Shown here in pieces: positions 17,274 through 30,987 of a stretch of 64,000 nt of DNA. The notes under the pieces were generated by a model that saw nothing but the letters and a program-made list of their open reading frames with translations, made no database searches and was not told the origin of the DNA. Position numbers and translations under genes: made by a program. The stretch covers positions 5,221 through 69,220 of the IMG/VR virus record IMGVR_UViG_3300042542_003631. The stretch is one strand, 5' to 3'. Each line of letters opens with the position of its first letter. Within the stretch, counting starts at the first letter, position 1. This stretch comes from a virus.

Positions 17274-17753
17274 ATGGCCCTTTCAACCTGCACAGTCTGC
17301 CACCGGGAGTTCGAGCGACCCCACAACAGCAACGCCAGGTGCGGCCGCTGCCGCGGAAAAAGCGACCGCGACCGCGCCCGAGAGTGTATTGAGGCAAAAG
17401 CCCGCCTGATGGCCACAAAGGCCCGCCTGAGGGCAAAGAACAGGGGCCAGGTTTTCACGGTCGACGCCCTCAGCATCGTCACCCAGTGGTATCGGCAGGC
17501 CGGGAGGTGCTATTTCAGCGGCCGGCCGATGACTCTGACCCCGGGACCGCGCTGCGTGAGCCTGGATCGCCTAGACAACCGGCGTGGATACACGGTCAAG
17601 AACATCGTCCTGGCTGCCATGAGGGTCAACGCCATGAAAAGCGACCTCACCGAGGCAGAATTCCGGGACTGGTGCGAGGCAGTGGCAGCAAACAGCCGGC
17701 CCGAGACCTCCGAAAAGGGTGGAGTCAAACCCCCTGAAGAGCTAGACCGCTGA
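17274..17753 (+). CDS. HNH-like endonuclease with N-terminal zinc finger
   Basis: CxxC...CxxC; CYFSG; SLDRLDNRRGY...NIVL...N.MK. Confidence 0.75.
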   Translation: MALSTCTVCHREFERPHNSNARCGRCRGKSDRDRARECIEAKARLMATKARLRAKNRGQVFTVDALSIVTQWYRQAGRCYFSGRPMTLTPGPRCVSLDRLDNRRGYTVKNIVLAAMRVNAMKSDLTEAEFRDWCEAVAANSRPETSEKGGVKPPEELDR

Positions 17754-17774
17754 TTACCAACGCCTTAGGCGAGA

Positions 17775-18055
17775 ATTAAGTGGGGAGAGTGGGGTGATAG
17801 TGGGGATAAAAAGTTGGTCTTTACCATCCCCAATCGCCCTAAACTGTTGAAACTCAGTCGTTTATGGCGATTTAGGTGGGGAAGTGGGGTGAATCGGGGT
17901 TCGGCATAAAAGTTCCCAGGAACACAAAAAACGCAAAATGGGGGGTGAGTGCCCGAAATCAAAAACTCCCGGAAATCACAGGTATCACCGGATTACCCTA
18001 TATATTATTACTTTATTATTATTAAAGTTACCTTATCCCCCACTACCCCCACTAA
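17775..18055. promoter_or_regulatory. Candidate replication origin (GTGGGG repeats around an AT-rich core)
   Basis: Repeated agtgggg units, inverted ccccact copies at 18033-18053, AT-rich tract 17999-18030; immediately downstream of replication genes. Confidence 0.45.
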
Positions 18056-18362
18056 GGCGCTGCAGCCTCGCAACGGCGGGGCTTCGATTGGTGGGTGGAC
18101 TTCCAAAAAGGCCTGTTTTTGACTCCCCCTCACCACCTACTCCCGAGGTGATTTGTGGCCTTTTGCACCCCTGCAACCCTGATCCCCAGCAGCAACCCAC
18201 TCAGGGGGTGTTCAGGTGAGCAGCCCATTTTCGACCCTGTTTTCGGGCATCCCCTCAAGCCTATTGAGACAGGCTCTCAACTCAACATACCCCCGACCCT
18301 GCCCGCCGGCGACCTCCAACCCTGCACCCCTGCAGCCCTCCGACCCTGGTTGCCTGGATCCG

Positions 18363-18410
18363 GGTGACCTGGTTGACCGGTTTGGGTGACCTGGTTGACC
18401 TGGTTGACCG
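18363..18410. repeat. Short tandem repeats of TGACC(T)GGT
   Basis: ggtgacctggttgaccggtttgggtgacctggttgacctggttgaccgg. Confidence 0.8.
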
Positions 18411-18604
18411 GCTGCAGGGTTGTGGGGTTGCGGTCTTCAGCGCCGGCGACCGCGCCCAAACCCCAGGCCATTGACCTCCGCCATTGCCTCCAGGGCTGAG
18501 TGTTCATTTGACCAGGACCTGAGATTTTGGCCAAAATTCTGCGACCCACTGACCGATAAGTTTCCCAGCCCACGCGGCCCCCAGCCCTCCTACCCGGGGT
18601 GGTG

Positions 18605-18967
18605 TCCATCGCGCACGTCGTTGAGAATCAACGACATACGCGATGGATGACTGAGGCCGTGGTAGCCTGGTTCGATACCACTCAAATGAACACCCCTAAC
18701 AGCTTCGCTGTTGGGATTCAACGATTTACAGCTACATGCAACGAAGTTGCATTTCGCGCACGGCCCGCGCCACGCATCGGGAGCTTTAGCTCCCCTGACC
18801 CTGCCTCGTCAAACCTTGACCTCTCGCGCTACGCGCAGGCAACTCCGAAGGAGTTGGAACCTGAGGTTCTAAGCCCTCCAACCCTCCAACCCTCCATCGG
18901 AGCTACTCCGTAGCTCAACGCGCCTGCATCATGCGATCGCCACACGCAGGCAATTCCGAAGGAATTG
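18605..18967. promoter_or_regulatory. Cluster of short-loop hairpins upstream of the early genes
   Basis: At least 7 inverted repeats, most with GAA/TTC/TCC 3-nt loops. Confidence 0.7.
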
Positions 18968-19062
18968 GAACCTCGGGTTCTAAACCCTTTCCTCGGCAGA
19001 GCTATGGTGACGGCAAACATCGCCGCAACAACACAACACAACACCCTACCCACCAACACAAC

Positions 19063-19578
19063 ATGAGCACTGAACTGACCAACCCTGTCATCGCCCCTAA
19101 CACCGAAGCCACCGTCGCCGAAGGCAACAAAGCCCTTGCGTCCTTCGAGAAGGCCATGATCGCCTACAGCAAAGCTGTCGGCACCTTCAAGCAACGGACG
19201 GTGGCGACGGTCATCGCCCTCCGCGCCGAAGGCTACGATGACCGGGTCATCGCAACGGCCCTCCGGGCCGTCGTCGAGAAGCACGGGGTCTCCCGGCAGC
19301 ACCTCAACCGGGTGCTCACCGCGCCGACCGCCGAAGGCGGCGCCGGCATGGAGGCGGAGCGCAAGCATGAGAAGAGCGGCTCGAAGGGCCTCAAGGGCAA
19401 ACTCGCCAAGGATGCCGCCAAGGGCGGCGTCACCGTTGACCTCGGCGACGCGAACAGCCTGTTCGCCGCCCTTCTCACCCACTTCGACGGCAAAGCCGTC
19501 AAGGTTATGACCTTGGCGGAAAAGCTCTCCGAGCTTGCGCAGCAGACCATCGAAAGGGCGGCTAAAGCCGCCAAGTAA
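19063..19578 (+). CDS. Hypothetical first early protein (basic, Ala/Lys-rich)
   Basis: ATG after an A/C-rich leader; followed by a strong terminator. Confidence 0.75.
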   Translation: MSTELTNPVIAPNTEATVAEGNKALASFEKAMIAYSKAVGTFKQRTVATVIALRAEGYDDRVIATALRAVVEKHGVSRQHLNRVLTAPTAEGGAGMEAERKHEKSGSKGLKGKLAKDAAKGGVTVDLGDANSLFAALLTHFDGKAVKVMTLAEKLSELAQQTIERAAKAAK

Positions 19579-19598
19579 GCAGGCACGACGCCACCCAC

Positions 19599-19629
19599 GG
19601 GGCACCCTTAACAGGGTGCCCCTTTTTTT
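19599..19629 (+). terminator. Intrinsic terminator
   Basis: ggggcaccct-taac-agggtgcccc followed by T7. Confidence 0.9.
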
Positions 19630-19713
19630 GTGCCCTGATTCGGCGGGCCTACCGCTTGGAACCTAGGTTCTAAGCCGCCCTACGAAGTAGCAACCCCGCA
19701 ACCCTGACACCCC

Positions 19714-19968
19714 ATGCAACGCAACACCCTGCCCCCCTTCGGCGACCGCCTCGCCGCCTTCAACGCCCTGCCGTGGCCCCGCCACGACGCGGCCCCCCGG
19801 CCCCGCGCCGACATCCTCGGCGACCTCGCCGTCATCCGTGCGGCCCAGCCGCTCTACTGCGGCGACCGCGACCGCGCCCGCCGCCTTGAAGCGGAGCTTC
19901 AACACGAGTTCGCCCGCCTGATTGACGCCGAGTTCGCCGCCGCCCTCCGTGAGGACGACGACGGCTGA
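19714..19968 (+). CDS. Hypothetical protein
   Basis: 84 aa, between palindrome copies. Confidence 0.65.
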   Translation: MQRNTLPPFGDRLAAFNALPWPRHDAAPRPRADILGDLAVIRAAQPLYCGDRDRARRLEAELQHEFARLIDAEFAAALREDDDG

Positions 19969-20056
19969 CCTCTCCTTCGGAGGGCTTGGAACCTCAGGTT
20001 CTAAGCCCTCCACCCCAGCAACCCAGCAACCCAGCAACCCAGCAACCCCGCACCCC

Positions 20057-20266
20057 ATGAACGACACGCTCAGCACCGACCCCCAGGTCATCGCCCGATT
20101 CCTCCGCCGCCTCCGCCTGGCGCGCCGCCTCGTCAAGACCCGCCCCGCCCGTGTGGTCGACCACACGTCCGCCTTCCCCGGCCCCGCCGTGCGCCGGCTG
20201 AAGATGGGCCTGCGCCCCCGATGCAGGGGTGAAGGGTTGGAACTCAGCCAGTTCCCCGGCGCATGA
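20057..20266 (+). CDS. Hypothetical Arg-rich protein
   Basis: ATG after CAGCAACCC repeats. Confidence 0.55.
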   Translation: MNDTLSTDPQVIARFLRRLRLARRLVKTRPARVVDHTSAFPGPAVRRLKMGLRPRCRGEGLELSQFPGA

Positions 20267-20373
20267 CGGGGGCGCGTTGACCCTTCCCTCGGCAGTAATG
20301 ACATGAGCCGGAATGACCCGGCCATCCCTTAGAACCTCAGGTTCCAACGACAACGACAACGACAACAACACCC

Positions 20374-20640
20374 ATGAAAGCACCCTGCGAAATCTGCCAG
20401 TGCCCGACCGAGTCGGGCGAATACTGCCCCCAGTGCGGGGGCGAGGTCGTCACCCTTGACGACAGCCCCCCGGCCCCCAGCCGCAAGCCCTTCGTCGTGA
20501 AGCACGGCGGGCTGGAGTATCATGTCGAGCCGGACTCCGGCTGGTGCCGGGTCTATGACCCGGAAAACGAGGGCTGCTGGGCTGACAAAGGCCCGGCGGT
20601 GGAACTACTGCCGGAGTCCCTGCGCTGGCTCGTCGATTGA
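20374..20640 (+). CDS. Small zinc-ribbon protein
   Basis: CEIC...CPQC; between palindrome copies. Confidence 0.65.
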   Translation: MKAPCEICQCPTESGEYCPQCGGEVVTLDDSPPAPSRKPFVVKHGGLEYHVEPDSGWCRVYDPENEGCWADKGPAVELLPESLRWLVD

Positions 20641-20701
20641 CCCTTAGAACCTCAGGTTCCAAGCAACCCAGCAACCCTCACCCCCAGCAACCCACCCGCC
20701 T

Positions 20702-20926
20702 ATGAACACCCCACGATACGACCAAGCCGTCCACCTCGCCGCCACCCACTTCCTATCCGATCTGCCCCCCAAGGCTACGGCGCAGGAAATCTTCGACGCC
20801 CTCGACAGCGAGAAACTCCCGCCCGGATACGAGCTGTGCGACGTCATCCGCCTGCCGCAGGAAGATCTGCGCGAGTGGATTGAGAACCTCGCCCAAGACT
20901 TCATGGAATTTGCCGCCCATGAATGA
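20702..20926 (+). CDS. Hypothetical acidic protein
   Basis: 74 aa, between palindrome copies. Confidence 0.65.
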   Translation: MNTPRYDQAVHLAATHFLSDLPPKATAQEIFDALDSEKLPPGYELCDVIRLPQEDLREWIENLAQDFMEFAAHE

Positions 20927-21070
20927 CCCTTAGAACCTCAGGTTCCAAGCCCCGAAACCCTTTCCCCCTGCGGCGCGTTTGCCGTCGGTGGACAAACCCA
21001 AACCCAAAGACAACGACAAAGACCATGAAGAACGACCCTACCATCAAACCCCTGGCCCCCCCGCAAAGCG

Positions 21071-21673
21071 GTGGAGCACCCCCGCTACTCCGCAGCCCTG
21101 CTGCGGGCTGCCTCCGACCACCTCAGCAAGGTTCCCCCGGGCCTCTGCGGCCGCCAGATCGTCAGCCTGCTGAGCTTCGGCTCCGCCGCTGACATCGCGG
21201 CGGAGGGCATCCTCCTGTGGGACAAGCTCCCCCTCGCCCGCGATGCGGCCCACCGCATCGACACCGCCGCCCGCACCGCGCTGGCGCTGGAGGAGTTCCA
21301 CGCCGCTCAGGCGAAGGCCCCCGCCCCCGCCCCCGCCCCCGCCCCGGCCCCGGCCCCCGAACCTTGCCCTCTGACCGAGGCCATCAAGGCGGCGGGCATC
21401 CCGGTGCCCCCTCCCGACGTGCTCGCCCACATCAAGCGCGTCGTCGGCATCAAGCCCGGGGACAAGATCGAAGTCACCCGGACTGAGCCGGCTCCCGCCC
21501 AGGATGATGACCACGGCCTCCCCACGGAGTGCTTCATCGCCCTCCAGCGTGTGCTGCCCGGCATCCGTGTCGTGCAGCGCAAGGTGCTGTCCTGCCCCAC
21601 GCTCCCCGTGGAACTGGCGCAGTCCATCCTCGACATGACTATCGCCAAGGCCGAGCGGCTCGGGATCATGTAA
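21071..21673 (+). CDS. Hypothetical protein with APAP linker (true start may be 21025 across a C7 run)
   Basis: 200-aa ORF from GTG; the upstream ATG with a typical leader is out of frame by 1 nt. Confidence 0.6.
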   Translation: MEHPRYSAALLRAASDHLSKVPPGLCGRQIVSLLSFGSAADIAAEGILLWDKLPLARDAAHRIDTAARTALALEEFHAAQAKAPAPAPAPAPAPAPEPCPLTEAIKAAGIPVPPPDVLAHIKRVVGIKPGDKIEVTRTEPAPAQDDDHGLPTECFIALQRVLPGIRVVQRKVLSCPTLPVELAQSILDMTIAKAERLGIM

Positions 21674-21948
21674 CGCCAGCAGTGTCGGCGAACCGTAGCT
21701 CACCGGAACCTCTGAGCCGTGACCAACGATAGAAGTCTAGCGGCCTCGCCCACCGCGATTAACCAACGGGCTACCCCATTTCCCTCGTGTTGGGAACAGG
21801 GTGGGCCGGGCGTGGATGACCCGTTCTGTCTCCGCGTCCGGCCCTAACACCCTGCAACCCCGACACACCTCAGCCTTTCGGCCCGCCCTTAGAAAATGAT
21901 TTTCCAAGGCGCGCCGGGAACCCAAACCCAAACATAAACATAACGACC

Positions 21949-22377
21949 ATGAAAACCAAGAAGAACAACACCTCCACGAAGAAGCCCGCCGCCCCCGCCA
22001 CGAAGAAGCCCGCCGCCCCCGCCACGAAGAAGCCCGCCGCCCCCGCCACGAAGAAGCCCGCCGCCCCCGCCACGAAGAAGCCCGCCGCCGGGCATCCCAT
22101 GCTCGGCCGCCGATGCGTCGTCCGCACTTACTCGGCGGGTGTCCACATCGGCAAGGTCACCCAGGTCTCGCCTGACAGCATGGGCGTCCTGCTCACCGAC
22201 GCCCTGCGCCTGTGGGAGTGGCGTGGCGGTGGCCTGAGCCTCAGCGCCGTTGCCAACAACGGCATCAAGGGCGGCCGCCTGAACCGCACGGGTGAGGTCT
22301 ACCTCACCAACGTGATCGAGTTCATCCCGGTCACTGAGGCGGCGGACGCGACCTTCCTCAAGTTCATCGAGGACTAA
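21949..22377 (+). CDS. DUF6948-like protein with N-terminal PATKKPAA repeats
   Basis: VVRTYSAGVHIG...LRLWEW...LSAVA; 24-bp tandem repeat about 21974-22090. Confidence 0.65.
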   Translation: MKTKKNNTSTKKPAAPATKKPAAPATKKPAAPATKKPAAPATKKPAAGHPMLGRRCVVRTYSAGVHIGKVTQVSPDSMGVLLTDALRLWEWRGGGLSLSAVANNGIKGGRLNRTGEVYLTNVIEFIPVTEAADATFLKFIED

Positions 22378-22423
22378 CCCGACCTCCGGCGCAGGCAGCC
22401 TCCCCTGCCTGCGCCATCCCACC

Positions 22424-22717
22424 ATGAACACCCAGCACCACACCCCTCCGCCCGTCGACAGCCACGGCCCTGGCCACGGTTCCGGCTCCGGCAACGGCTT
22501 CGGCGACGGCGACGGCTTCGGCTCCGGCCACGGCAACGGCGACGGTTTCGGCGACGGCTCCGGCTCCGGCTCCGGCTACGGCGACGGCTACGGCGACGGC
22601 GACGGCTCCGGCTACGGCTTCGGCTTCGGCTACGGCTTCGGCTTCGGCTACGGCTCCGGCCTCGGCTTCGGCAACGGCGATGGCTCCGGCAACGGCGATG
22701 GCTCCGGCAATGACTGA
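22424..22717 (+). CDS. Glycine-rich (GxG) repeat protein
   Basis: GDGYGSG repeats; starts MNTQHHT. Confidence 0.7.
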   Translation: MNTQHHTPPPVDSHGPGHGSGSGNGFGDGDGFGSGHGNGDGFGDGSGSGSGYGDGYGDGDGSGYGFGFGYGFGFGYGSGLGFGNGDGSGNGDGSGND

Positions 22718-22721
22718 CCCC

Positions 22722-22958
22722 ATGAACACCCAGCACCACACCTTCCCGCCCTCCATCGACGGATACGCCCCAGGATCCGGCCGCGGCGACGGCTCCGGCC
22801 GCGGCTTCGGCTTCGGCAACGGCTCCAGCTCCAGCTCCGGCTACGGCTCCGGCCGCGGTTTCGGCTACGGCGACGGCTCCGGCTCCGGCTCCGGCTACGG
22901 CGACGGCTACGGCTTCGGCTACGGCGACGGCTCCGGCTACGGCTTCGGCCACGGCTAA
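22722..22958 (+). CDS. Glycine-rich (GxG) repeat protein, paralog
   Basis: Same MNTQHHT start, GYGDG repeats. Confidence 0.7.
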   Translation: MNTQHHTFPPSIDGYAPGSGRGDGSGRGFGFGNGSSSSSGYGSGRGFGYGDGSGSGSGYGDGYGFGYGDGSGYGFGHG

Positions 22959-23061
22959 CCCCCATGAACACCCCTTTCGGCTCAACCCTTAGAACCTCAG
23001 GTTCCAAGGCGAGCCGGGAACCCAAACCCAAACACAACAACACCCATACAAGAACACGACC

Positions 23062-24663
23062 ATGATTAACTCCATCCCACACCTCGACCCCGCCACCGCA
23101 ACCCGCGAAGAGATGCGTGGCTGGATCAGCAGCGCCGCCCGTGCGCTGGCCACCAGCATCCACGGATCTCCGACCATCGCCTCCCTGCGTGAGGTGATGA
23201 AGAGCGTCGGTTACCCGTCGCTCTCCTCCGTCATCGCCGAGGGCACCATGGAGACGCTCCGCAAGTGCGTCTCCGGCCTCACTGACGAGGCCTCCGTGCG
23301 CGGCCTGCTGCTGGGAGAGGCCTCCCCGGCCCCGGCCCCGGCCGCTCCCCCGGACTCCCTGCCCCCGCCTCCCGAGCGCATCCGCGTCATCGCTGACGAG
23401 GTCGCGGAGCTTGACGAGGCCACCCGCCTCGCTGACGAGGCCGCCGACCTGGCCAAGCGCGCCGCCGCTGCTGCCGCCGCCGCCCGTGCCGCCGCCACCC
23501 CTCGCGCCGCCGGGCTGTCGCCTGCTGACCTCGCCCGCATCGACGCCTTGGAGGCCAACGCCACCGAGACCGTCAAGACCCTGGACGTGTTCCGCACCGG
23601 CATGACGGCGCTGGCTGGCACCATCGACGGCATCAACGCCCGCCTCGGCCCCCTCGACGCCGTGCTCGACGCCCTCAAATCGAGCAGCGGTGGCGGAACC
23701 CCTGCCACCCTGCCGCCCGCCGCCGCTGCCGCCGTCAAGGCCGCCGTGTCCGGCGACCGCCTCCTGACCGAGGTGCTGCCGTTCTTCACGCCGGGCATCC
23801 CCCAGGGCAACCAGATTCCCTGCGTTGCCTCGCCGCCGAGCTTCGGCAAGACGTTTATGAGCGACGAGATTTCCCGTCTTTACGACGGCAGCTTCTTCCA
23901 CCCGTTCAAGGACAGCCTTGACGAGATTGACAGCCTCGTCGGCACCCTCATGCCCCGGGCTGACGGCACGTTCGCCGTGATCGACGGTCCCCTCGTCAGC
24001 GCCGCACGTCTCGCCAGCACCGGCGTGAATGTGCTGTTCGTCGGTGATGAGATCTTCAACGCATCGAAGAAAACCCTGGAGTGGATGCAGAGCTTCCTCT
24101 CGCCCCGCCTCGTGGAGTGCGTCAACCCTGACGATGGCACCACCAGTCTGCGCCGCTGCTTCGTCATCCAGACCAAGCATAGCTTGGAGGACGGCACCTT
24201 CGAGGTCATCAAAGCCCCGGAGGAGTGCCTGCACTTCCTGTTCCTCGGCAACCTGCGGAGCAACCCGCCGGAAGCCCTCATGTCCAGGTGCCGCCTGATG
24301 CGCTTCGACTACGAGGAGAAGTGGGCTGCGGAGACTGCTCTCCAGCGCCTCGTCGGCTACTCCGGCGGGGTGTTCTCCGGCGCTCCCGCCGAACGCTGGT
24401 CCAAGCAGTGGGCTGCGGCCATGACCGCTTCGCGGCAGGCATACAGCAAGATGGAGGTCAGCCGCCCGCTGTGCTTCCGATTCCTGATCGGCGCCGTCAC
24501 CCACGTCGCCCGCCAGCCTGATGCCAGCCTCACGAAGCTGACGGAATACGTCGCCAAGTGGGCACCCCACCAGATCGCCGTGCAGAATGCTGCCACGCAG
24601 GACACGGACGCCACCAGCGTCGCCACGGTCAACAGGATCATCGCCGCCACCTTCATCAAGTAA
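23062..24663 (+). CDS. MoxR/CobS-like AAA+ ATPase with N-terminal coiled coil
   Basis: Walker A SPPSFGKT, Walker B FVGDEIFN, sensor N in LGN, Arg finger ALMSR. Confidence 0.75.
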   Translation: MINSIPHLDPATATREEMRGWISSAARALATSIHGSPTIASLREVMKSVGYPSLSSVIAEGTMETLRKCVSGLTDEASVRGLLLGEASPAPAPAAPPDSLPPPPERIRVIADEVAELDEATRLADEAADLAKRAAAAAAAARAAATPRAAGLSPADLARIDALEANATETVKTLDVFRTGMTALAGTIDGINARLGPLDAVLDALKSSSGGGTPATLPPAAAAAVKAAVSGDRLLTEVLPFFTPGIPQGNQIPCVASPPSFGKTFMSDEISRLYDGSFFHPFKDSLDEIDSLVGTLMPRADGTFAVIDGPLVSAARLASTGVNVLFVGDEIFNASKKTLEWMQSFLSPRLVECVNPDDGTTSLRRCFVIQTKHSLEDGTFEVIKAPEECLHFLFLGNLRSNPPEALMSRCRLMRFDYEEKWAAETALQRLVGYSGGVFSGAPAERWSKQWAAAMTASRQAYSKMEVSRPLCFRFLIGAVTHVARQPDASLTKLTEYVAKWAPHQIAVQNAATQDTDATSVATVNRIIAATFIK

Positions 24664-24740
24664 CCCCTTCGGGGAGGGCTTAGAACCTGGGGTTCCAAGC
24701 TCTCCCCCGCAACCCTCACACCCTCACACCCTGCAACAAC

Positions 24741-25841
24741 ATGACACCTGCACCCACCCCTCCGCCCTCGCGCCCCGTGCTGACGCACCCCGAGTATCGC
24801 AAGGCGTTCACCGCCTGCACCCGCCGTGAAACCCGCAAGCCTGACGGCAGCGTCCGCCAGCGGGCCGGCTCGCTCAGCTACCTCGCCAAGGCCACCGCGT
24901 CCCGCGTCGTGGTCCGATACAACGAGGTTGACTGCCCCGCCCCCACCGCCAGCTGGCGCTGGGATGACGGCAAGCACCTGATCCAGGTCAACCCCGAGCT
25001 CCCGCAGCACTCCCTCGACGACGACAAGTCCCTGCCCTCCCGCAGGATCGACCTCGCGAAGGCTGCGATCACGCACGAGGTGTGCCACGGACTCTACACC
25101 TCCCGCTCCGGCGCGGTTGCGGCTGAGTCCGCCCGCGCCAAGGTCCCCTTCCGTCTGCTTAACCTGATGGAGGACTGCCGCATCGAGTGGAAGTATGTCA
25201 AGGAGCGCGGCAAGGAATTCAAGTTCGGCTGGCAGACCCGGTTCCCCGACCGCATGGTGCTCAGCACGGACCCGGTGTATAGCCCCATGCACTGGCTGCT
25301 GACCATGAAGCAGCGCGAGCCCATCACGTTCAAGTCGCTGGCGTCGGTGATGAGCCCCTACACCTGGGCCGGAAGGGCAAGCATCAGCTGCCCCACCGCC
25401 CCGTTCCCTCACTCCATGAAGCTCCTTGAGGGCGTGGACTGCCAGTTCAAGAGACTGGTCAACCGGTTCTACCAGGCTATCGTCGAAGCGGAGTCCACCG
25501 AGGCGCTGATCCCCATCGCCGCCTACTGGACCCTCTGCTTCGGCCGCGAGGAGACCAGTTCCCTGCCACCCATCCTTGTCCACACGGTGCCCGGCACCGT
25601 CGGCGACACGGTGGACCCGGCGGAGCCCGGAGCTCCCGGCTCCGCATCGACGGCGGAGTGCGCCACCCGCGAGGCCATGCACGCCCCCGTCACTGGCGAG
25701 CTCGGCGGCATGGAGCATATCGAGCGAGCCTCCATCGACGTTGACCGCGTGATGCACTACAACACCGACGAATACATCAAGCAGCGCCCGCGCCCTGGGC
25801 TGGTCCCCCTCGCTGTCTATGTCGGCGAGCTCGTGAAGTAA
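24741..25841 (+). CDS. Zincin-like metallopeptidase (CobT N-terminal-like)
   Basis: HEVCH followed by NLMEDCRIE. Confidence 0.7.
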   Translation: MTPAPTPPPSRPVLTHPEYRKAFTACTRRETRKPDGSVRQRAGSLSYLAKATASRVVVRYNEVDCPAPTASWRWDDGKHLIQVNPELPQHSLDDDKSLPSRRIDLAKAAITHEVCHGLYTSRSGAVAAESARAKVPFRLLNLMEDCRIEWKYVKERGKEFKFGWQTRFPDRMVLSTDPVYSPMHWLLTMKQREPITFKSLASVMSPYTWAGRASISCPTAPFPHSMKLLEGVDCQFKRLVNRFYQAIVEAESTEALIPIAAYWTLCFGREETSSLPPILVHTVPGTVGDTVDPAEPGAPGSASTAECATREAMHAPVTGELGGMEHIERASIDVDRVMHYNTDEYIKQRPRPGLVPLAVYVGELVK

Positions 25842-25864
25842 CCCTGAACCCCATCATCATCACC

Positions 25865-26611
25865 ATGTCCACCACACCTCCCCGATACGTCAACCAGATC
25901 CCCTCCTTCAAGCCCGCCGTCGCCCAGCGCGTCGCCAATGGCTTCGCCGCCGTGATGGAGCAGGCCGAGCCCGCCGCCGCCGACCCCTCGCCCACTGGCT
26001 CCCGCCTCAACCACCGTGCCATCTTCACCCACAACTATGGCAGCGCCTTCCTACAGCCGTCAGCCGTTGACGGGTGCCGCCGCGTCCTCCTGATCGTGGA
26101 CTTCAGCGGCAGCATGCTTGGCATGTGGCGGTCCGGCGCCGCCGAGTTCGTGTGGGGGCTGATGCAGTTCGCCCGCCAGGGCGGCTGCCACCTCCGCGTG
26201 ATCCTGACCGGAGCCGCCAAGGGTCCGGCAGAACTCCCGGTCGAAGCCCCCTTCGAGGTGTTCACGGCACTCTACCCCGGCCACGGGCAGGAGGCGTTCG
26301 CCACCACCATGCTCAACCCCGTCGTCCATGCGATGATGGAGGAGTCTGACATCACGATCTGCTGGACCGACGGTCAGCTGACCGACGGTTACGTTGACGC
26401 CATCCGCTGGCGTGAGCGCAACATCAACGTGATCGGCGCATGCCTCGGCGTCCCTGGCACCAAGGCGCACCACCCCACACGCGGCATGATCCCCCTTGAG
26501 GAGGCCATGTCCGAATACTTCCATGCGTCGTTCGTTGACGCGGACCCCGCACGCATGGCCACACGCATAGCCACCTGGGTGTCTGCCGCCCCGCTGCGCG
26601 ACCTCCAGTAA
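25865..26611 (+). CDS. von Willebrand factor A domain protein
   Basis: MIDAS motif DFSGSM, later TDG. Confidence 0.8.
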   Translation: MSTTPPRYVNQIPSFKPAVAQRVANGFAAVMEQAEPAAADPSPTGSRLNHRAIFTHNYGSAFLQPSAVDGCRRVLLIVDFSGSMLGMWRSGAAEFVWGLMQFARQGGCHLRVILTGAAKGPAELPVEAPFEVFTALYPGHGQEAFATTMLNPVVHAMMEESDITICWTDGQLTDGYVDAIRWRERNINVIGACLGVPGTKAHHPTRGMIPLEEAMSEYFHASFVDADPARMATRIATWVSAAPLRDLQ

Positions 26612-26701
26612 CACCTCACCACGGCGGCTTAGAAAATCGTTTTCTAAGCCGCCATCCCACCACCTGTGAAACTCCACATCATACCTGCATCACTGCAAAT
26701 C

Positions 26702-27070
26702 ATGGCCACCAGATCCATCCCCGCTGACCGCGCCAAGGTCACGCTGATTGACCAGAACAACCCCGACTTCCACTCCGTCTCCCTCGTGTGGACGGATGCG
26801 ACGCACCGCATCACCGACTTCCAACTCTCCCGGCTCGGCGAGGTCGCCGCCACGCAGGATGACCTGCTTGCCTGCCCACCCCGTGGGTGGGTGTCGCTGG
26901 TCGGTCGCTGCCAGGTCCGCCGAGGCACCTTCATCAAACTCCTCCCCCGCAGGCTCCGCCCCGCCCGCCCACGAACACAGAGCTCCCTGTCATCTACCTC
27001 CGCGGCAACCCCGAGCAGCGCTACCGATTCCTGGAGGACGGCGAGCTCATCGAAGCCGGCGACACCATGA
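26702..27070 (+). CDS. Hypothetical protein
   Basis: ATG at 26702; tail overlaps the next ORF out of frame. Confidence 0.45.
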   Translation: MATRSIPADRAKVTLIDQNNPDFHSVSLVWTDATHRITDFQLSRLGEVAATQDDLLACPPRGWVSLVGRCQVRRGTFIKLLPRRLRPARPRTQSSLSSTSAATPSSATDSWRTASSSKPATP

Positions 27071-27339
27071 TCTACAAATACGAGATCACCGAGGTGCGCG
27101 ACGGCCTGAACATCATCCCCAACCACGAGCCTTGGTGGTCAACTGCGGAGGGCTGCAAGGCCCACCCATCCAGCGAGAGCTACTGCTACCTCCGGCCGAT
27201 CACCCTGAGCCTGCGGGAGGCAGCGCTCCCCCTCCTCGACTACTGGTTCGGCAAATACCAGTTCACCTGCACCGACGACGAAGAGCGCCGCGTCTGGCAG
27301 GCAGTCATCGACAACCTTACCCCCAAAGAACCCACCTGA
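26971..27339 (+). CDS. Hypothetical protein (start uncertain)
   Basis: Protein-like frame NTELPVIY...YRFLEDGELIEAGD; no ATG before 27067. Confidence 0.5.
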   Translation, partial: TNTELPVIYLRGNPEQRYRFLEDGELIEAGDTMIYKYEITEVRDGLNIIPNHEPWWSTAEGCKAHPSSESYCYLRPITLSLREAALPLLDYWFGKYQFTCTDDEERRVWQAVIDNLTPKEPT

Positions 27340-27340
27340 T

Positions 27341-27574
27341 ATGAGCCCTGCAACCCGACCCCGCAACCCCCTGACCCGCAACCCCGACGGCACCGTCTCA
27401 TGGACGGCGCAGGAGGGCGACACCTACCTTGTCACCGGCACCGACCGCGATGGCAGGCGCTTCCGCGCCACCTGCTCCACATGGAGGCATGCCTCGTCGA
27501 TCAACATCTGGCGCGGCTCGCGCTGGCTGATCCGCGACGGCCGCAAGTTCCGCATCAACACCACCTGCAACTGA
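27341..27574 (+). CDS. Hypothetical protein
   Basis: 77-aa ORF, tightly packed. Confidence 0.6.
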   Translation: MSPATRPRNPLTRNPDGTVSWTAQEGDTYLVTGTDRDGRRFRATCSTWRHASSINIWRGSRWLIRDGRKFRINTTCN

Positions 27575-27579
27575 ACCCC

Positions 27580-27834
27580 ATGAAGTCATCCTTCCACAAC
27601 CCTCGCAGATACCGCCGCAGGCCCGGCACCTACACCCAGGGCAGCGTCGACCCCCACGTTCCGCACGAGATCATTGTGCATCTTGACGACACTGACGAGC
27701 GTCGCATTACCCTCGGCACCACCGAGGTCCGCCGCGTCCTCTGCCGCAATGGCGGCTACCACATCACCATGACGAAGGACCCTCGCCTCGTCACATGCCC
27801 CGTCTGCCTCGCCAAACTCCTCCCCGCCAAGTAA
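27580..27834 (+). CDS. Small Cys/His protein
   Basis: H...LC...VTCPVC. Confidence 0.6.
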   Translation: MKSSFHNPRRYRRRPGTYTQGSVDPHVPHEIIVHLDDTDERRITLGTTEVRRVLCRNGGYHITMTKDPRLVTCPVCLAKLLPAK

Positions 27835-27856
27835 TCCCACACCCCACAACATACCC

Positions 27857-28294
27857 ATGAAAACACAGACCGAAATCGTAATCGAAACCATCCAGTTCTA
27901 CCTCGCCGACCCAGATAACAGGAGGTCCGTCTCTGAACAAGGGTGCCACTACGTCATACCGGGAGAGCCCAGCCGCCACTGCGCCGTCGGACGCTGCATG
28001 ACGCCAGATGCGCTGCGCCGCCACGGCCATATTTTGGGCAATGTCCACGGCCTTGTCAGGGACGCTGGCGCTCGTCACCTCGACGACCTCCTGCAAGCTG
28101 AGTATCGTGGGCACCCCGTCACGTTCTGGCAGGACCTCCAGGTCCTCCACGACTACCTCGGGGCCTGGACTGGCGGTGAAAACGCGGCCCGAACCCGGGG
28201 CATCTTTGTCAGGGACCGCCTCCCCGATGCCCTCGCCCCCTGCATCGCACTCGGCCTCGTCGCCGACCCGGCCGCCACCGTGTCCTCCAAGTAA
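27857..28294 (+). CDS. Hypothetical protein, tandem paralog A
   Basis: CHY...CAVG...LQxLHD. Confidence 0.75.
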   Translation: MKTQTEIVIETIQFYLADPDNRRSVSEQGCHYVIPGEPSRHCAVGRCMTPDALRRHGHILGNVHGLVRDAGARHLDDLLQAEYRGHPVTFWQDLQVLHDYLGAWTGGENAARTRGIFVRDRLPDALAPCIALGLVADPAATVSSK

Positions 28295-28317
28295 CCTTCA
28301 CACCCCACACACAGCAC

Positions 28318-28743
28318 ATGAAAACCGAAGCCGAAATCGTAATCGAAACCCTCCAGTTCTACCTCGCCGACCCCGCTGCCCGGAGGGCTAAGAGTTGGGA
28401 CGGACCTTCCTGCCACTACGCCATGCCGGGAGAGCCCAGCCGCCGCTGCGCCGTCGGACGCTGCATGACCGAGGAAGCCGTCAAGGAGGTCGGCAGCTAC
28501 ATGGGCGAAGTCGGGTTCCTGGTCGATGACCACGGAGCCCTCGACCGAATGCTCCGCGAGGAATACCGTGGGCTCTCGGAAGACTTCTGGAGACAACTCC
28601 AAACCCTTCACGACGAGGACTGCTACTGGACTGCTGACGATGCCGCAGTCCGCCGGGGGAAACTGGTGGGAATCTACTTCCCCGACGCCCTCGACCCCTG
28701 CATTGCGCTCGGCCTCGTCGCCGACCCCGACATCGCCGAATAA
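28318..28743 (+). CDS. Hypothetical protein, tandem paralog B
   Basis: Near-identical N- and C-termini to 27857-28294. Confidence 0.75.
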   Translation: MKTEAEIVIETLQFYLADPAARRAKSWDGPSCHYAMPGEPSRRCAVGRCMTEEAVKEVGSYMGEVGFLVDDHGALDRMLREEYRGLSEDFWRQLQTLHDEDCYWTADDAAVRRGKLVGIYFPDALDPCIALGLVADPDIAE

Positions 28744-28780
28744 TCCCTCACCCCCAACGACAACGACAACACACATACCC

Positions 28781-29674
28781 ATGAAAACCAAACTGCACTC
28801 CTACTCCTTCAACACGGGCAACATCCCCGACCACCAAGCCTACAACCTGCTGCGCCTCACCATGGCGGAGCAGTCCCGCCGCGACCCGATCGTTTTCCTC
28901 GAAGGCGGACCTACCAGCGGCAGCGGGTTCGAGCACCTCGTGCTGCTCGGGTCCCCCACCCACAACCACTCGATCTATGAGGTGGAGCTCGACCCGAAGC
29001 ACCTGTTCAATGACCAGTGGAACACTGTCGAGCGCGGCGACCACAGCGGCTACCGCGTGTTCGATTGGGTGGAATACATCAGCCCCCACAGCCGCAACAT
29101 CAAGCGCGGTCACTGGCTTGAGGTCACTGACGAGATGGCCGACGCCCGCCAGCGGACATTCGCCTGCGGCTACTGCAGCGCCCTGTATGGCACGGTCCAC
29201 CCTGACCACCTGACCGCGCCCCGTCACGACATCGGGCGCAAGTTCTGCAAGAAGTGCCTCGGCTCCAGCTACCTCAAGGAGGATGACCTCCCGCTGCTCC
29301 GCTTGTGGGCCGTCAATGTCAAGGCCAGCCGCATGCGGGAAGGTTTGACGGCGGAGGAACGCGAGTGGCTCATGCCCCGCTACCTCGCAGCGCAGACGGA
29401 GGCCAAGGCGGAGGCTGACGTCGCTGCCCTCGCCGCCTGCCTGAAACGTGCCGAGGACGCGCACGCCCTCGCCACCATGGAGTATGAGGGCATGAAGCTG
29501 CTGATCGAGAGCGGCATCAACACCGACAACGTGATCTTCCACAGCCACAGGCCCGAGTTCAAGTTCGGCTGGCGCTCCCCGCTCTCGCCCAGCGTGGCTG
29601 ACGCAATGCGCGAGCGGCTCACGGCGATCGGCTTCATCCCCAAGTTCCCCGTCAACCTCCACACCGGAGCATGA
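28781..29674 (+). CDS. Hypothetical protein with zinc ribbon
   Basis: CGYC...CKKC. Confidence 0.7.
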   Translation: MKTKLHSYSFNTGNIPDHQAYNLLRLTMAEQSRRDPIVFLEGGPTSGSGFEHLVLLGSPTHNHSIYEVELDPKHLFNDQWNTVERGDHSGYRVFDWVEYISPHSRNIKRGHWLEVTDEMADARQRTFACGYCSALYGTVHPDHLTAPRHDIGRKFCKKCLGSSYLKEDDLPLLRLWAVNVKASRMREGLTAEEREWLMPRYLAAQTEAKAEADVAALAACLKRAEDAHALATMEYEGMKLLIESGINTDNVIFHSHRPEFKFGWRSPLSPSVADAMRERLTAIGFIPKFPVNLHTGA

Positions 29675-29762
29675 CCAACCCCGCTGCGACCTTTGGAACC
29701 TGAGGTTCTAAGGGTCGCGGCCCACCTAACCAACAACACCGCAACACCCGCCCCACCACACC

Positions 29763-30395
29763 ATGAGCAAACCCGTTGAAGTTAAACTCGGCCCCGCCGT
29801 CTTCCAATCCTTGAAGGAGATCCTGTTCAAGCAGGGCGAGAGCCATCCACACGACGCGCTATTCGACATCCTCCACGAGGAAGCCTGCGACGCCGTCGAC
29901 ATCGAGCTCACCGCCGCAGAGTATGACTACAATGAACTTGACGACGACCAGCGCCATGAGTTGATCGACGCCTACAAGGCCGGCTTCTGGGAACCCACTC
30001 ACAAGGACGAGAGGCGTGAGCTCAAGGAGCAGGTCGCCGACCTCTACAACGCACTGGCTGACAAGACGGCCTCCGCACCCTGCACCCCTGACCCCCGGTT
30101 CCCCGGCATGTTCGTGCCCCGCGTCCCCACGCTGAGCCTCAACCACCTGCCGCTCAAGGATGCCGCCCGGTTGTGCGACCCGGCAGACCTCGCCCACCCG
30201 GCGGTGATCGGGGCCTCCTCTGACGGAGCCATCCTCCACATCGGGGACCTCAGCGACGACATCGAGAACGAGTTCGCCGGGTTCAGCGAGGCATTCCGCA
30301 ACATCGTGCTCCGCCTCACTGAGGCAGGCTACAACTACGTTCGATTTGACGCGACGCATGAGACGGTCGAATCCTTCCCCACCTTCGACTGGTGA
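29763..30395 (+). CDS. Hypothetical acidic protein
   Basis: 210 aa, C-terminal YVRFD...FDW. Confidence 0.65.
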   Translation: MSKPVEVKLGPAVFQSLKEILFKQGESHPHDALFDILHEEACDAVDIELTAAEYDYNELDDDQRHELIDAYKAGFWEPTHKDERRELKEQVADLYNALADKTASAPCTPDPRFPGMFVPRVPTLSLNHLPLKDAARLCDPADLAHPAVIGASSDGAILHIGDLSDDIENEFAGFSEAFRNIVLRLTEAGYNYVRFDATHETVESFPTFDW

Positions 30396-30421
30396 TAACC
30401 AGCGACAACCCAGCAACCCAC

Positions 30422-30613
30422 ATGATACTACGCAAACCACAGATCATCGAGCTCATGGACAAGCTCGACCACAAGGCCACCAACGCCGAGACCGAAGCCA
30501 TCGCCAAGCGCCGAGCCGCGCTGCCCCACCTGCGCGAGCAGGGCGAGGCCGCAGCCAGGCGTGCCCGTGAGCTCCGCGACAACATCCGTCAACTCGCAGC
30601 CCTCATCCACTGA
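30422..30613 (+). CDS. Hypothetical coiled-coil protein
   Basis: 63-aa ORF. Confidence 0.5.
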   Translation: MILRKPQIIELMDKLDHKATNAETEAIAKRRAALPHLREQGEAAARRARELRDNIRQLAALIH

Positions 30614-30617
30614 AACC

Positions 30618-30824: not shown

Positions 30825-30831
30825 CGCACCC

Positions 30832-30987
30832 ATGAAACTCCTGCTCCGAACCATCTGCCTGCGCACCCGCTACTGGTGGCACAGGCTCGTCACCATCTTC
30901 GACTGGTGCCCGAAATGCTGGGCCACCCTGAACTACACCCGCAGCCACAAACTATGCCCAAGATGCAACTTCCGAACCCTACGATAA
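30832..30987 (+). CDS. 51-aa zinc-ribbon peptide
   Basis: Hand-translated: CPKC...CPRC. Confidence 0.5.
   Translation: MKLLLRTICLRTRYWWHRLVTIFDWCPKCWATLNYTRSHKLCPRCNFRTLR

What the first reader, a model, noticed from the sequence alone, without database searches (positions are those of the whole stretch)
18854..29712. Early genes are punctuated, cassette-like, by 12 copies of a covarying palindrome
Seen: consensus CTT(A/G)GAACC-NNN-GGTTC(C/T)AAG at 18854, 18965, 19655, 19985, 20328, 20643, 20929, 21888, 22988, 24679, 26628 and 29692, always intergenic. Many copies sit a few bases after a stop codon (20640, 20926, 19968, 24663, 26611, 29674) and just before the next leader. From 18965 to 21888 each interval holds one ORF. 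Two copies change both arms together (GAAAA-tga-TTTTC, GAAAA-tcg-TTTTC). Several extend the symmetry with copy-specific flanks (agggc/gccct, ggcgg/ccgcc, gcgacc/ggtcgc). The single arm mismatch appears in both orientations. Inference: hairpin structure, not only sequence, is under selection. Candidate functions are recombination sites for the arm-less tyrosine recombinase at 7385 (an integron-like accessory gene shuffling system), hairpin promoters, RNA processing sites, or operators.
Basis: partly seen in the sequence, partly recalled or inferred. Interest (0 to 1): 0.9.

Follow-up and report, generated by a model that had tools for sequence, protein, structure and literature searches.

The report
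Repeated palindrome bounding phage early-gene cassettes
A 21-base palindrome sits in front of each early gene of this uncultured lake phage and its relatives; it is most likely a control site for early gene expression, and it is also where gene cassettes get swapped, a pattern already known from other phages.

Summary
The window is most of a 69,220-bp phage record. It carries 12 copies of C-TTRGAACC-N2-3-GGTTCYAA-G, all between + strand early genes at 18853-29712. Chance expects 0.02-0.06 copies.

Five related phage records carry 5-10 copies each at matching positions. More distant relatives carry symmetric variants (GGAAAC-AT-GTTTCC, AGAAAC-W-GTTTCT).

The arms covary, and about a fifth of copies have copy-specific complementary flanks. 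However, the symmetry runs into the "loop", both orientations occur, and A.C mismatches on the mRNA strand are common.

In one relative (G002), 8 of 9 copies switched the centre from TSA to A..T. That record's first early protein (F, HTH-like, predicted homodimer) is only 35-39% identical to the window's F.

Cassette content differs between relatives, and the boundaries lie at or inside the motif.

Best reading: a multi-copy control site for a phage-specified dimeric factor, which also acts as a passive crossover point like the PeSL cassettes of T4-type phages. An RNA-hairpin role remains a strong rival. Integron-like recombination and N4-like hairpin promoters have little support.

This scan has noted similar early-region repeats in other phages. 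I class it as a new variant of a known kind, of moderate interest.

The parts
18853..18873 (.). motif copy 1 (GTTGGAACC-TGA-GGTTCTAAG), in the leader of gene F
18964..18984 (.). motif copy 2 (ATTGGAACC-TCG-GGTTCTAAA), 78 nt before the ATG of F
19063..19578 (+). gene F: 171 aa, first early gene, HTH-like segment at residues 60-86, predicted homodimer; candidate motif-binding factor (inferred)
19599..19632 (+). canonical intrinsic terminator (10-bp stem plus T-run) after F, conserved in G003, G004 and G005
19655..19674 (.). motif copy 3 (2-nt centre, CTTGGAACC-TA-GGTTCTAAG), 22 nt after the terminator's T-run
19985..20005 (.). motif copy 4, flanks ggaggg/ccctcc give a 15-bp stem
20328..20348 (.). 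motif copy 5 (A/C type, no flank pairing)
20643..20663 (.). motif copy 6, 2 nt after the stop at 20640
20929..20949 (.). motif copy 7, 2 nt after the stop at 20926
21888..21908 (.). motif copy 8, variant arms GAAAA-TGA-TTTTC; left copy of the ~60-nt direct repeat that brackets the G000-only cassette L
21909..22987 (+). cassette L (DUF6948 gene 21949-22377 plus two Gly-rich ORFs), absent from G001-G005
22988..23008 (.). motif copy 9, before the conserved 533-aa gene D; right copy of the direct repeat
24679..24699 (.). motif copy 10 (centre TGG), flanks ggggaggg/ctctcccc
26628..26648 (.). motif copy 11, variant arms GAAAA-TCG-TTTTC, flanks ggcgg/ccgcc
29692..29712 (.). motif copy 12, flanks gcgacc/ggtcgc; last copy
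17754..19062 (.). 1.3-kb non-coding head of the early region: GTGGGG-type and GACCTGGTT repeats, an AT-rich block and small hairpins. Contigs of several relatives begin or end in or near this region and the variable cassettes beside it

Best explanation
The motif is a cis-acting control site that marks the 5' boundary of every early-gene cassette in this phage lineage. I think it is most likely read as a symmetric duplex site by a dimeric, phage-specified factor. That would resemble the multi-copy intergenic operators of some temperate phages: cluster A 'stoperators' and, from recall, the phiC31 conserved inverted repeats. The best candidate for the factor is F (19063-19578), the first early gene, which has two motif copies in its own leader. 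Binding would set or shut down expression of the early cassettes that follow the terminator after F. The motif is also the only sequence shared by otherwise unrelated cassettes, and it is hairpin-prone. It therefore acts passively as the crossover and breakage point for cassette gain, loss and replacement, as PeSL elements do in T4-type phages.

Shown: the copies, their positions, their conservation and variants in relatives, covariation, and cassette differences bounded by the motif.

Inferred: DNA-level recognition, F as the binder, and the regulatory outcome.
For: 1. Symmetry beyond a hairpin's needs.
- Positions 10 and 12 are T..A or A..T in most copies (TCA 25, TGA 12, ATT 5, AAT 1, ACGT 1, ACAT 1, TA 2, AT 5 of 60 unique copies).
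- The unit is therefore a near-perfect 20-22-bp palindrome.

2. No strand preference.
- Both orientations occur within one genome on one transcription direction (TCA and TGA; A/C 19, G/T 17, A/T 18 of 54 copies).
- On the mRNA strand, 16 of 59 distinct copies have a non-pairing A.C at 4/18.
- 3 of the 6 A/C copies in the window have no flank pairing and fold at only -4.4 to -5.2 kcal/mol.

3. Sequence conservation.
- Outer arms T3, G5, A6, A7 and T15, T16, C17, A19 are invariant in 60 copies from 10 records.
- Half-sites occur almost only in pairs.

4. Genome-specific variants.
- G002 has A..T-type centres in 8 of 9 copies.
- This includes 4 of 4 orthologous copies inside a 5,122-column block that is 90.5% identical to G005, which has TCA there.
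- L151 has TGGAAAC-AT-GTTTCCA 5 times, plus one copy with an AA centre. L154/L155 have TAGAAAC-W-GTTTCTA.

5. Gene F.
- F is the first gene after the non-coding head. It is preceded by copies 1 and 2 and followed by a canonical terminator and copy 3.
- It has an HTH-like segment, VIATALRAVVEKHGVSRQHLNRVL.
- In G002 its homologue is only 34.8-39% identical, with TPQYLNRIF in that helix.
- Homodimer model: score 0.51, best of 3 controls 0.00. The mark was reached by 20 of 30 proteins solved as pairs of one chain and 1 of 23 solved as single chains. Runs agree in at least 85% of contacts, and partner pLDDT is at least 68. The counts hold only roughly because my own alignment was used.
- Of the putative recognition helix 78-86, only residue 80 is in the modelled interface.

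6. Restricted distribution.
- The motif occurs only in the early block. Canonical T-tract terminators exist elsewhere (17227, 19599, near 35880), so it is not the general terminator.

7. Cassettes.
- The series C-D-E is conserved. Cassettes J, K, L (window), Q, R (G005) and N (G002) are unique, and all are bounded by motifs.
- In close pairs, 5 of 12 internal block ends (G003 against G004) lie within 25 nt of a motif, as do 3 of the first 5 block ends of G005 against G002, all three within 10 nt.
- Two junctions lie inside the motif.
- A ~60-nt repeat containing the motif brackets cassette L.
Against: - The centre is 2, 3 or 4 nt long within single genomes (window 2 and 3; G002 3 and 4). A rigid dimer should not tolerate that, while a hairpin loop would.
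- Two window copies changed both arms together (CC/GG to AA/TT, four substitutions). Pair 8/14 is C-G in 47 and A-U in 11 of 59 copies, with one mismatch.
- 12 of 54 copies have 4 or more extra Watson-Crick flank pairs, against 7.5% in the cross-copy null. They use several different sequences.
- At the site before gene D, pair 0/22 is kept in 7 of 7 sequences with three pair types. A duplex operator does not need these features.
- F has no significant family or fold match: Pfam best E 0.043, below cut-off; Foldseek none at E 0.001 or better; VIA best Z 6.9, within the stated noise for helical models; pLDDT 64.
- The link between F and the motif rests on one evolutionary contrast (G002).
- In G002 the F homologue is not preceded by motif copies.
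- No sigma-70-like promoter sits at a fixed distance from the motif, so what the factor would regulate is unknown.
Confidence: 0.45

Rival explanations
1. RNA-level hairpin in a long early transcript. Each copy folds in the mRNA after the upstream stop codon and before the G-poor leader. It would serve as a processing site (as the RNase III sites between T7 early genes), as a 3' stabiliser or insulator, or as a loading site for an RNA-binding antiterminator. In the last case F would act like lambda N, with the pL-nutL-N-tL1 layout.
For: - Arm and flank covariation: core 93.2% of cells paired, 5 of 9 core pairs with changes on both sides, score 0.168 against 0.109 +/- 0.010 in shuffles (0 of 500), slid controls 0.070-0.117.
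- Extended stems of 14-18 bp fold at -24 to -36 kcal/mol at 6-7 of 12 window copies.
- G-runs appear on an otherwise G-poor strand only where they can pair.
- Centre length varies from 2 to 4 nt.
- Copies sit 2-17 nt after stop codons.
- No canonical terminator lies between 19632 and about 35880, so a long transcript is plausible.
- The layout is promoter-like site, two hairpins, F, terminator.
- The copies upstream of F in the window, G004, G005 and L158 are all G.U or A-U types at 4/18.
Against: - A.C at 4/18 on the mRNA strand in 16 of 59 copies.
- Three window copies fold at only about -5 kcal/mol.
- Complementarity inside the 'loop' is not needed for a hairpin.
- The strict within-genome sequence identity needs a sequence-specific partner or concerted evolution.
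- The motif is absent from later + strand intergenic gaps that have the same leader type.
- No Rfam family matches.
- No RNase or RNA-binding domain was found among the phage proteins scanned.
Confidence: 0.28
2. Binding site of a host protein. The phage would place a host regulator's palindromic operator before each early gene, to couple early expression to host physiology or to titrate the factor.
For: - The duplex symmetry and the lack of strand bias, as for the best explanation.
- Variants between relatives could follow different hosts.
- From recall only, AGAAC-N4-GTTCT resembles Gram-positive-type LexA boxes. Two copies (window 19655, G004 25384) have that spacing.
Against: - Most copies have N5 spacing.
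- The variants GAAAC..GTTTC do not keep GAAC.
- G002 and G005 share 90% identical early DNA yet differ in the motif centre. That fits a swapped phage factor better than a host change.
- The host is unknown, so nothing could be tested.
Confidence: 0.07
3. DNA-hairpin promoters read by a polymerase delivered with the DNA, as in phage N4. A cryptic polymerase would be hidden in the 4,255-aa virion protein.
For: - The copies cluster at the head of the early block.
- Each is followed by an unstructured leader.
- No host-type promoter lies between the terminator at 19599 and the next gene.
- A giant virion protein is encoded at 38013-50780.
- Three-base centres are typical.
Against: - The giant protein has no Pfam, PHROG or PDB sequence match to any polymerase.
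- It has no DxDxD motif outside an acidic run.
- Relatives carry the Pfam family PF18760, which I recall as a polyvalent-protein ART domain, and a 77-aa stretch matches T7-like internal core proteins. The C-terminal third looks membrane-inserting by eye.
- The central base on the template strand is C or G indifferently, and either strand carries the mismatch.
- There are 12 copies rather than about 3.
Confidence: 0.06
4. Integron-like site-specific recombination sites for the arm-less tyrosine recombinase at 7385-8257.
For: - Cassette content differs between relatives with boundaries at the motif.
- A tyrosine recombinase is present and conserved in relatives.
- Invariant 7-bp outer arms with a more variable 6-8-bp middle could be read as a core-type site.
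Against: - There is no attC-like GTTRRRY/RYYYAAC core (by eye, consensus recalled).
- Sites are sequence-identical and 20-22 bp long, not structure-only and 57-141 bp.
- Symmetric sites give no direction, yet all early genes keep one strand in 6 of 6 genomes.
- G/C at 4/18 is absent in 54 copies, where free exchange of left and right arms predicts about 6.
- The junctions read at base level are a 5-8-nt microhomology deletion and a half-motif replacement.
Confidence: 0.06

Closest known systems
PeSL (promoter-early stem-loop) cassettes of T4-type phages (PMC2839356, passages read; PMC4122927, abstract read)
   Same: A repeated conserved motif with a stem-loop between small early genes of unknown function in a hyperplastic region. 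Indels and replacements between close relatives are bounded by the motif. In RB49 a crossover was localised to the stem-loop's loop, as with the G004 deletion here. The stem-loops often carry G-runs followed by C-runs.
   Different: PeSLs carry a strong sigma-70-like promoter and a Shine-Dalgarno site next to the stem-loop. Here no promoter hexamers sit at a fixed distance and there is no SD. The conserved part is the palindrome itself, with genome-specific symmetric variants. The lineage is unrelated: a 60-69 kb record with a giant virion protein.
Multi-copy intergenic operators: cluster A mycobacteriophage stoperators (PMC6550527, PMC9283540; search listing and abstract starts only) and the phiC31 conserved inverted repeats (recalled, not retrieved)
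   Same: Many near-identical short sites in short intergenic gaps of one transcription block. The site consensus differs between related phages, along with a phage-encoded DNA-binding protein.
   Different: Stoperators are 13-bp, asymmetric, oriented and bound by a monomer. Here the site is a 20-22-bp palindrome with variable centre length and flank pairing. No repressor is identified, lysogeny is not shown, and binding is untested.
RNase III processing sites between T7 early genes (recalled)
   Same: Hairpins punctuate an early polycistronic block, one per gene boundary.
   Different: T7 sites are longer irregular stems recognised by structure. Here a short core is sequence-identical between copies, and many copies are mismatched on the mRNA strand.
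N4 virion-RNA-polymerase hairpin promoters (recalled)
   Same: Short stem with a 3-nt loop at the head of the early region, and a giant virion protein encoded on the other strand.
   Different: No polymerase is detectable, there are 12 copies, and there is no fixed strand or loop base.
Integron attC sites (recalled) and REP elements
   Same: Hairpin-capable repeats at cassette or gene boundaries.
   Different: No attC boxes and no extrahelical-base pattern. The sequence, not only the structure, is conserved. No RAYT/Y1 transposase was found among the phage proteins scanned.

Membership tests
PeSL cassettes | stem-loop-capable conserved repeat between small early genes in a variable region | tested here: met
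   12 copies between small ORFs; the cassette map varies between relatives
PeSL cassettes | sigma-70-like early promoter adjacent to the stem-loop in each copy | tested here: not met
   The anchored alignment of 46 unique copies shows no conserved hexamers from -44 to +81 outside positions 0-24. The consensus scan finds 2 promoter-like sites in 14 kb against 1.7 expected, none at a motif
PeSL cassettes | indel and replacement junctions between relatives fall at the repeat | tested here: met
   unique cassettes bounded by motifs, two junctions inside the motif, and the repeat bracketing cassette L
PeSL cassettes | mini-circles from recombination between neighbouring copies | not testable with these tools
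   Only short DNA contigs were available
Multi-copy operators (stoperator / CIR type) | many near-identical sites in intergenic gaps of one transcription block | tested here: met
Multi-copy operators (stoperator / CIR type) | cognate phage DNA-binding protein whose specificity tracks the site variant | tested here: inconclusive
   F is HTH-like and a predicted dimer. It is strongly diverged in the one genome with switched centres. There is no family or fold match and only one contrast
Integron attC | R''/L''...L'/R' boxes with GTTRRRY core, structure conserved but sequence variable, 57-141 bp | tested here: not met
   Read from the alignment: the right arm GGTTCYAAG does not fit GTTRRRY (consensus recalled). 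Copies are 20-22 nt and sequence-identical
Integron attC | recombination by an IntI-type integrase | not testable with these tools
   The recombinase at 7385 matches Phage_integrase weakly (E 1.7e-7).
N4-type hairpin promoter | virion RNA polymerase gene | tested here: inconclusive
   No polymerase signal in the 4,255-aa protein by sequence. Its folds were not predicted
N4-type hairpin promoter | hairpin with fixed strand and a purine at the loop centre of the template strand | tested here: not met
   Centre TCA 25 and TGA 12 of 60 unique copies. The mismatch lies on either strand
Intrinsic terminator | GC-rich stem followed by a T-run | tested here: not met
   The scan lists 17227 and 19599 but none of the 12 copies. 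The sequence after the motif is C-rich
REP/RAYT | associated Y1 (RAYT) transposase | tested here: not met
   No such Pfam hit in the 47 window proteins scanned against Pfam
Known RNA family (Rfam) | match to a curated covariance model | tested here: not met
   Only the tRNA at gathering threshold. No match at E 1 or better in 18500-30000

The most novel reading that the evidence does not exclude
The palindromes extrude as cruciforms or hairpins. They would be recognised by F and cut and rejoined by the phage's own structure-specific enzymes: the RuvC-like resolvase at 8254, the endonuclease VII-like protein at 17409, or the arm-less tyrosine recombinase at 7385. That would be a programmed, structure-directed gene-cassette exchange system in a phage. 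It would resemble integrons in outcome but differ in mechanism, and it would double as the early-gene control site.
Probability: 0.08. Interest if true: 0.85.

Novelty: new variant of a known kind. Interest (0 to 1): 0.45.

Why it matters
Repeated boundary motifs in phage early regions appear to be a general way of wiring and shuffling accessory genes. This lineage offers a clean case. The conserved part is only a 21-bp palindrome with no attached host promoter or ribosome-binding site. It changes in concert between close relatives, and a small early protein is an obvious binding candidate. If F binds it, the pair would be a compact orthogonal regulator and operator set. It would also be a natural example of operator and regulator co-evolving across about ten sites at once. 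If the RNA reading is right instead, it would show how a host that does not use Shine-Dalgarno sites (inferred from the phage's leaders) organises polycistronic phage messages.

Tried and rejected
- Expression data. No RNA holder was listed for 18600-28500. Laying contigs of four runs on 17000-31000 gave short, low-depth DNA pieces, and gave joints only in the Gly-rich repeat or by cross-placement on other motif copies. Nothing could be concluded on transcripts or circles.
- Host identity. The genome-contig scan for the motif returned chance singles and unrelated multi-copy repeats in Oscillospiraceae and Saccharibacteria MAGs, with no prophage among the rows shown.
- Known phages. Megablast of 18000-30000 against phage records found no match.
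- More relatives. Searches with protein D and the F alignment in viral contigs returned the same five records plus one 6-kb contig. The metagenome scan added L151 and L153-L156. Pattern scans for the variant motifs gave only single chance hits.
- Giant protein. The ESM Atlas search of residues 1000-2500 scored 0.88 or lower, with unnamed clusters.
- Fold of F. No Foldseek match at E 0.001 or better. The VIA wide search's best hit was the RepB' primase helix bundle, Z 6.9, rmsd 3.2 over 72 residues, within the tool's stated noise. The profile against PDB sequences found nothing. A weak RepB_primase_C hit (E 0.031) in one remote homologue is a lead only.
- A possible 13th copy at 33734 (10.4 bits, E 0.72) lies in a coding-looking ORF and was rejected.
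- Other rejected ideas: a T-arm-like reading of GGTTCYAAGCC, a sigma-54 or ECF promoter reading, and a LacI-type half-site reading. These were considered from recall and dropped for wrong spacing. None was tested.
- Print search. The exact motif strings were found only in two unrelated mouse papers. No paper on this phage group was found in the five searches made (and the PeSL reading).

Full report
**What the window is.** The window is bases 5221-69220 of a single 69,220-bp virus record with 64% G+C. I called genes with my own codon-usage script. It gives a + strand block at 7385-37070 and - strand structural genes elsewhere.

The + strand block holds:
- a tyrosine recombinase, a RuvC-like resolvase and a helicase-nuclease;
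- a family A DNA polymerase and a DUF5906 primase-helicase;
- an endonuclease VII-like protein;
- a 1.3-kb non-coding region, followed by many small genes.

The - strand genes include a terminase large subunit and a 4,255-aa protein. No gene has a Shine-Dalgarno sequence. Leaders are rich in C and A. The leaders after the motif are 14.5% G, against 27.1% G for the region. Late genes and the gene at 35964 sit 5-8 nt after TTGACG-N17-nAnnnT boxes, which suggests leaderless messages. DNA runs that hold the stretch are labelled lake, freshwater and aquatic metagenomes.

**The observation.** All 12 copies exist at the stated places.
- Chance expectation is 0.02 for the 13-nt core and 0.06 for the 21-nt consensus with three mismatches.
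- A covariance model built on 60 copies and run unfiltered over the window finds the same 12 loci at 20.8-46.4 bits. Nothing else scores above 10.6 bits.
- Every copy lies between called genes.
- Gaps to the preceding stop are 2-17 nt for seven of the 12 copies. Distances to the next start are 25-121 nt for copies 2 to 12.

**Relatives.** The exact pattern occurs in five IMG/VR records. I fetched them whole. They are syntenic with the window at about 65-83% nucleotide identity and have 55-58% G+C. They carry 5, 9, 10, 9 and 9 copies, always before a C/A-rich leader and a start codon.

A metagenome scan with the conserved early protein D found more distant relatives. In these, the same positions hold symmetric variants:
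- TGGAAAC-AT-GTTTCCA five times in L151, plus one copy with an AA centre;
- TAGAAAC-A/T-GTTTCTA in L154, L155 and L156.

The element is therefore a family trait with genome-specific versions.

**Structure or sequence?** I aligned 60 unique copies (59 distinct rows) and counted pairs.

| Measure | Result |
|---|---|
| Core cells paired | 93.2% |
| Pair 8/14 | C-G 47, A-U 11, one mismatch |
| Pair 9/13 | C-G 49, U.G 5, A-U 2, three mismatches |
| Covariation score | 0.168 against 0.109 +/- 0.010 in shuffles (0 of 500) |
| Slid controls | 0.070-0.117 |

Flanks add four or more Watson-Crick pairs in 12 of 54 copies, against 7.5% in a cross-copy null. Several different flank sequences are used. At the site before gene D, the first flank pair is kept in 7 of 7 sequences with three pair types. 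By eye, a lower stem changes from TCGGC/GCCGA to TCGGAT/ATCCGA, but RNAalifold did not include it. These points fit a hairpin.

Several observations argue against a simple RNA hairpin:
- Pair 4/18 is A-U 22, G.U 15, G-C 6 and non-pairing A.C 16 on the + strand.
- Within the six close genomes the counts are G/T 17, A/C 19, A/T 18 and G/C 0 of 54, where independence predicts about 6 G/C. The copies are related, so this is only suggestive.
- Three window copies fold at only about -5 kcal/mol.
- The positions beside the centre are themselves complementary (T.A or A.T) in most copies. A 3-nt loop does not need that, but a duplex palindrome shows it naturally.
- TCA and TGA centres, which are reverse complements, are mixed within genomes.

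Centre lengths of 2, 3 and 4 nt within one genome argue the other way. The data therefore show a sequence-specific, strand-symmetric element that can also form hairpins.

**A concerted switch and a candidate factor.** G002 and G005 share a 5,122-column block at 90.5% identity. All four orthologous motif copies in that block differ only in the centre: TCA in G005, and ATT, ACAT, ATT, ATT in G002. Overall, 8 of 9 G002 copies are of the A..T type. Neutral drift cannot plausibly do this. It needs either selection by a changed recognition factor or short-tract conversion among copies.

Gene F (19063-19578) is the first early gene.
- A TTGACC box lies upstream of copy 1, copies 1 and 2 lie in its leader, and a canonical terminator follows it at 19599. 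Copy 3 starts 22 nt after the T-run. The terminator-then-motif order is kept in G003, G004 and G005.
- F has a helix-turn-helix-like segment.
- It belongs to a small family. Fifteen representatives reach E 0.001 or better among 1.84 billion proteins, and 34 homologues turned up in the word-indexed search.
- It is modelled as all-helical at pLDDT 64.
- It passes the homodimer test. The score was 0.51 and the best of 3 controls 0.00. The mark was reached by 20 of 30 proteins solved as pairs of one chain and 1 of 23 solved as single chains. Runs agree in at least 85% of contacts, and pLDDT is at least 68. I used my own alignment, so the counts hold only roughly.
- Its G002 homologue is only 34.8-39% identical and differs in the putative recognition helix.

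This is one contrast, not a proof. F has no significant family or fold match. In G002 the homologue is not preceded by motif copies.

**Cassettes.** I cut each early region at the motifs and compared the pieces by tblastx. A conserved series C-D-E appears in all six genomes. The left part is variable.

| Genome | Cassette order |
|---|---|
| Window | I F J A K B C L D E A A |
| G004 | P F G H B C D E A |
| G003 | O G H B B C D E A A |
| G005 | F Q R A B C D E A |
| G002 | M A A N C D E A A |

Cassette L (1,079 nt, three genes) is unique to the window. It is bracketed by a ~60-nt direct repeat that contains the motif and the start of the D leader.

In close pairs:
- 5 of 12 internal block ends (G003 against G004) lie within 25 nt of a motif;
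- 3 of the first 5 block ends of G005 against G002 lie within 10 nt of a motif.

Motif neighbourhoods make up roughly 6-8% of these regions, although intergenic placement alone would already raise that figure.

Two junctions could be read to the base:
- G004 is 99.6% identical to G001 over 9.4 kb, yet has lost the right half of one motif plus the start of the next gene. The loss runs between the motif centre and an internal ACCTC.
- G001 and G004 have about 135 nt in place of the left half of the motif that G003 has at 9785.

These look like short-homology or hairpin-provoked events, not precise site-specific exchange. PeSL elements of T4-type phages behave in the same way, including a crossover mapped to the loop (PMC2839356, passages read).

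**What it is not.**
- It is not the phage's general terminator. Canonical stem plus T-run terminators exist at 17227, 19599 and near 35880, and none of the 12 copies qualifies.
- It is not a host-type promoter. No conserved hexamers occur outside positions 0-24 in 46 unique anchored copies.
- It is not a known RNA family.
- No polymerase, sigma factor, RNase or Y1 transposase appeared among the phage proteins scanned.
- The giant protein looks like a polyvalent injected protein. It has HExxH at residue 2559, a 77-aa match to T7-like internal core proteins, and relatives with Pfam family PF18760, which I recall as an ART domain of polyvalent proteins. Sequence methods cannot exclude a cryptic polymerase fold, so the N4-like reading keeps a small probability.

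**Verdict.** The finding is real, and the cassette-like description is right. The most economical account has two parts. First, the motif is a multi-copy control site recognised symmetrically by a phage-specified dimer, with F as the candidate. Second, it passively serves as the recombination joint of early-gene cassettes. An RNA-level role is the main rival, and the flank covariation keeps it alive. The integron-like and hairpin-promoter ideas have little support. Earlier notes of this scan describe comparable early-region repeats in other phages. The kind is therefore known and recurrent, and this is a distinctive variant of it.

Noticed in passing
window 33545-33619: A phage-encoded tRNA-Met (anticodon CAT) sits between UvdE-like gene 32412-33518 and a small ORF.
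   Followed up: yes
window 17754-19062: The 1.3-kb non-coding region has GTGGGG-type repeats (about 17780-17915), an AT-rich block (18000-18035), four GACCTGGTT repeats (18366-18412) and several small hairpins. It is probably an origin or packaging region. Contigs of relatives G001, G003 and L151 begin in or beside the variable early cassettes that follow this region. G002's 'terminal repeat' is a tandem-repeat tract between its F homologue and its first motif copies, which corresponds to this head region.
   Followed up: partly
window 38013-64000 and 35852-35963 (upstream regions): Late operons and gene 35964 start 5-8 nt after TTGACG-N17-nAnnnT boxes, which suggests leaderless mRNAs. No gene in the record has a Shine-Dalgarno sequence, and leaders are C/A-rich and G-poor. 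This hints at a host with SD-independent initiation.
   Followed up: partly
window 63890-64000 and record bases about 2718-2828 (outside the window): The last 100 or more bases of the record recur near base 2728. Two large - strand genes (737 aa and 631 aa) share identical upstream sequence. They may be paralogous tail-fibre-like genes, and the repeat is probably why the assembly ends there.
   Followed up: no
window 38013-50780 (-): The 4,255-aa virion-block protein has HExxH at residue 2559 and a 77-aa match to T7-like internal core proteins. Relatives of 2,570-4,747 aa sometimes carry Pfam family PF18760, which I recall as a polyvalent-protein ART domain.
   Followed up: partly
window 8254-8754 and 17409-17753 (+): Two structure-specific nucleases are encoded: a RuvC-like Holliday junction resolvase (PHROG E 2.6e-17) and an endonuclease VII/HNH-like protein (E 1e-18). 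Such enzymes cut branched DNA (recalled), which may matter for breakage at the palindromes.
   Followed up: no
window 33846-34313, 32412-33518, 12773-13165 (+): An Acb2/Tad1 hairpin-domain protein (E 2.6e-8), a UvdE UV-endonuclease (E 2.8e-26) and a dATP/dGTP diphosphohydrolase N-terminal domain (E 2.1e-29) are encoded.
   Followed up: no
loci L012-L091 (genome contigs): The same 21-nt palindrome pattern is a multi-copy repeat in unrelated Oscillospiraceae and Saccharibacteria MAGs, with up to 4 sites in 8 kb. These may be independent REP-like elements. Single hits in other genomes are at the level chance predicts for 596 Gb.
   Followed up: no
window 22137-23070: The Gly-rich ORFs (GGC-type repeats) recruit hundreds of unrelated metagenomic contigs when runs are laid, which inflates depth there.
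   Followed up: no
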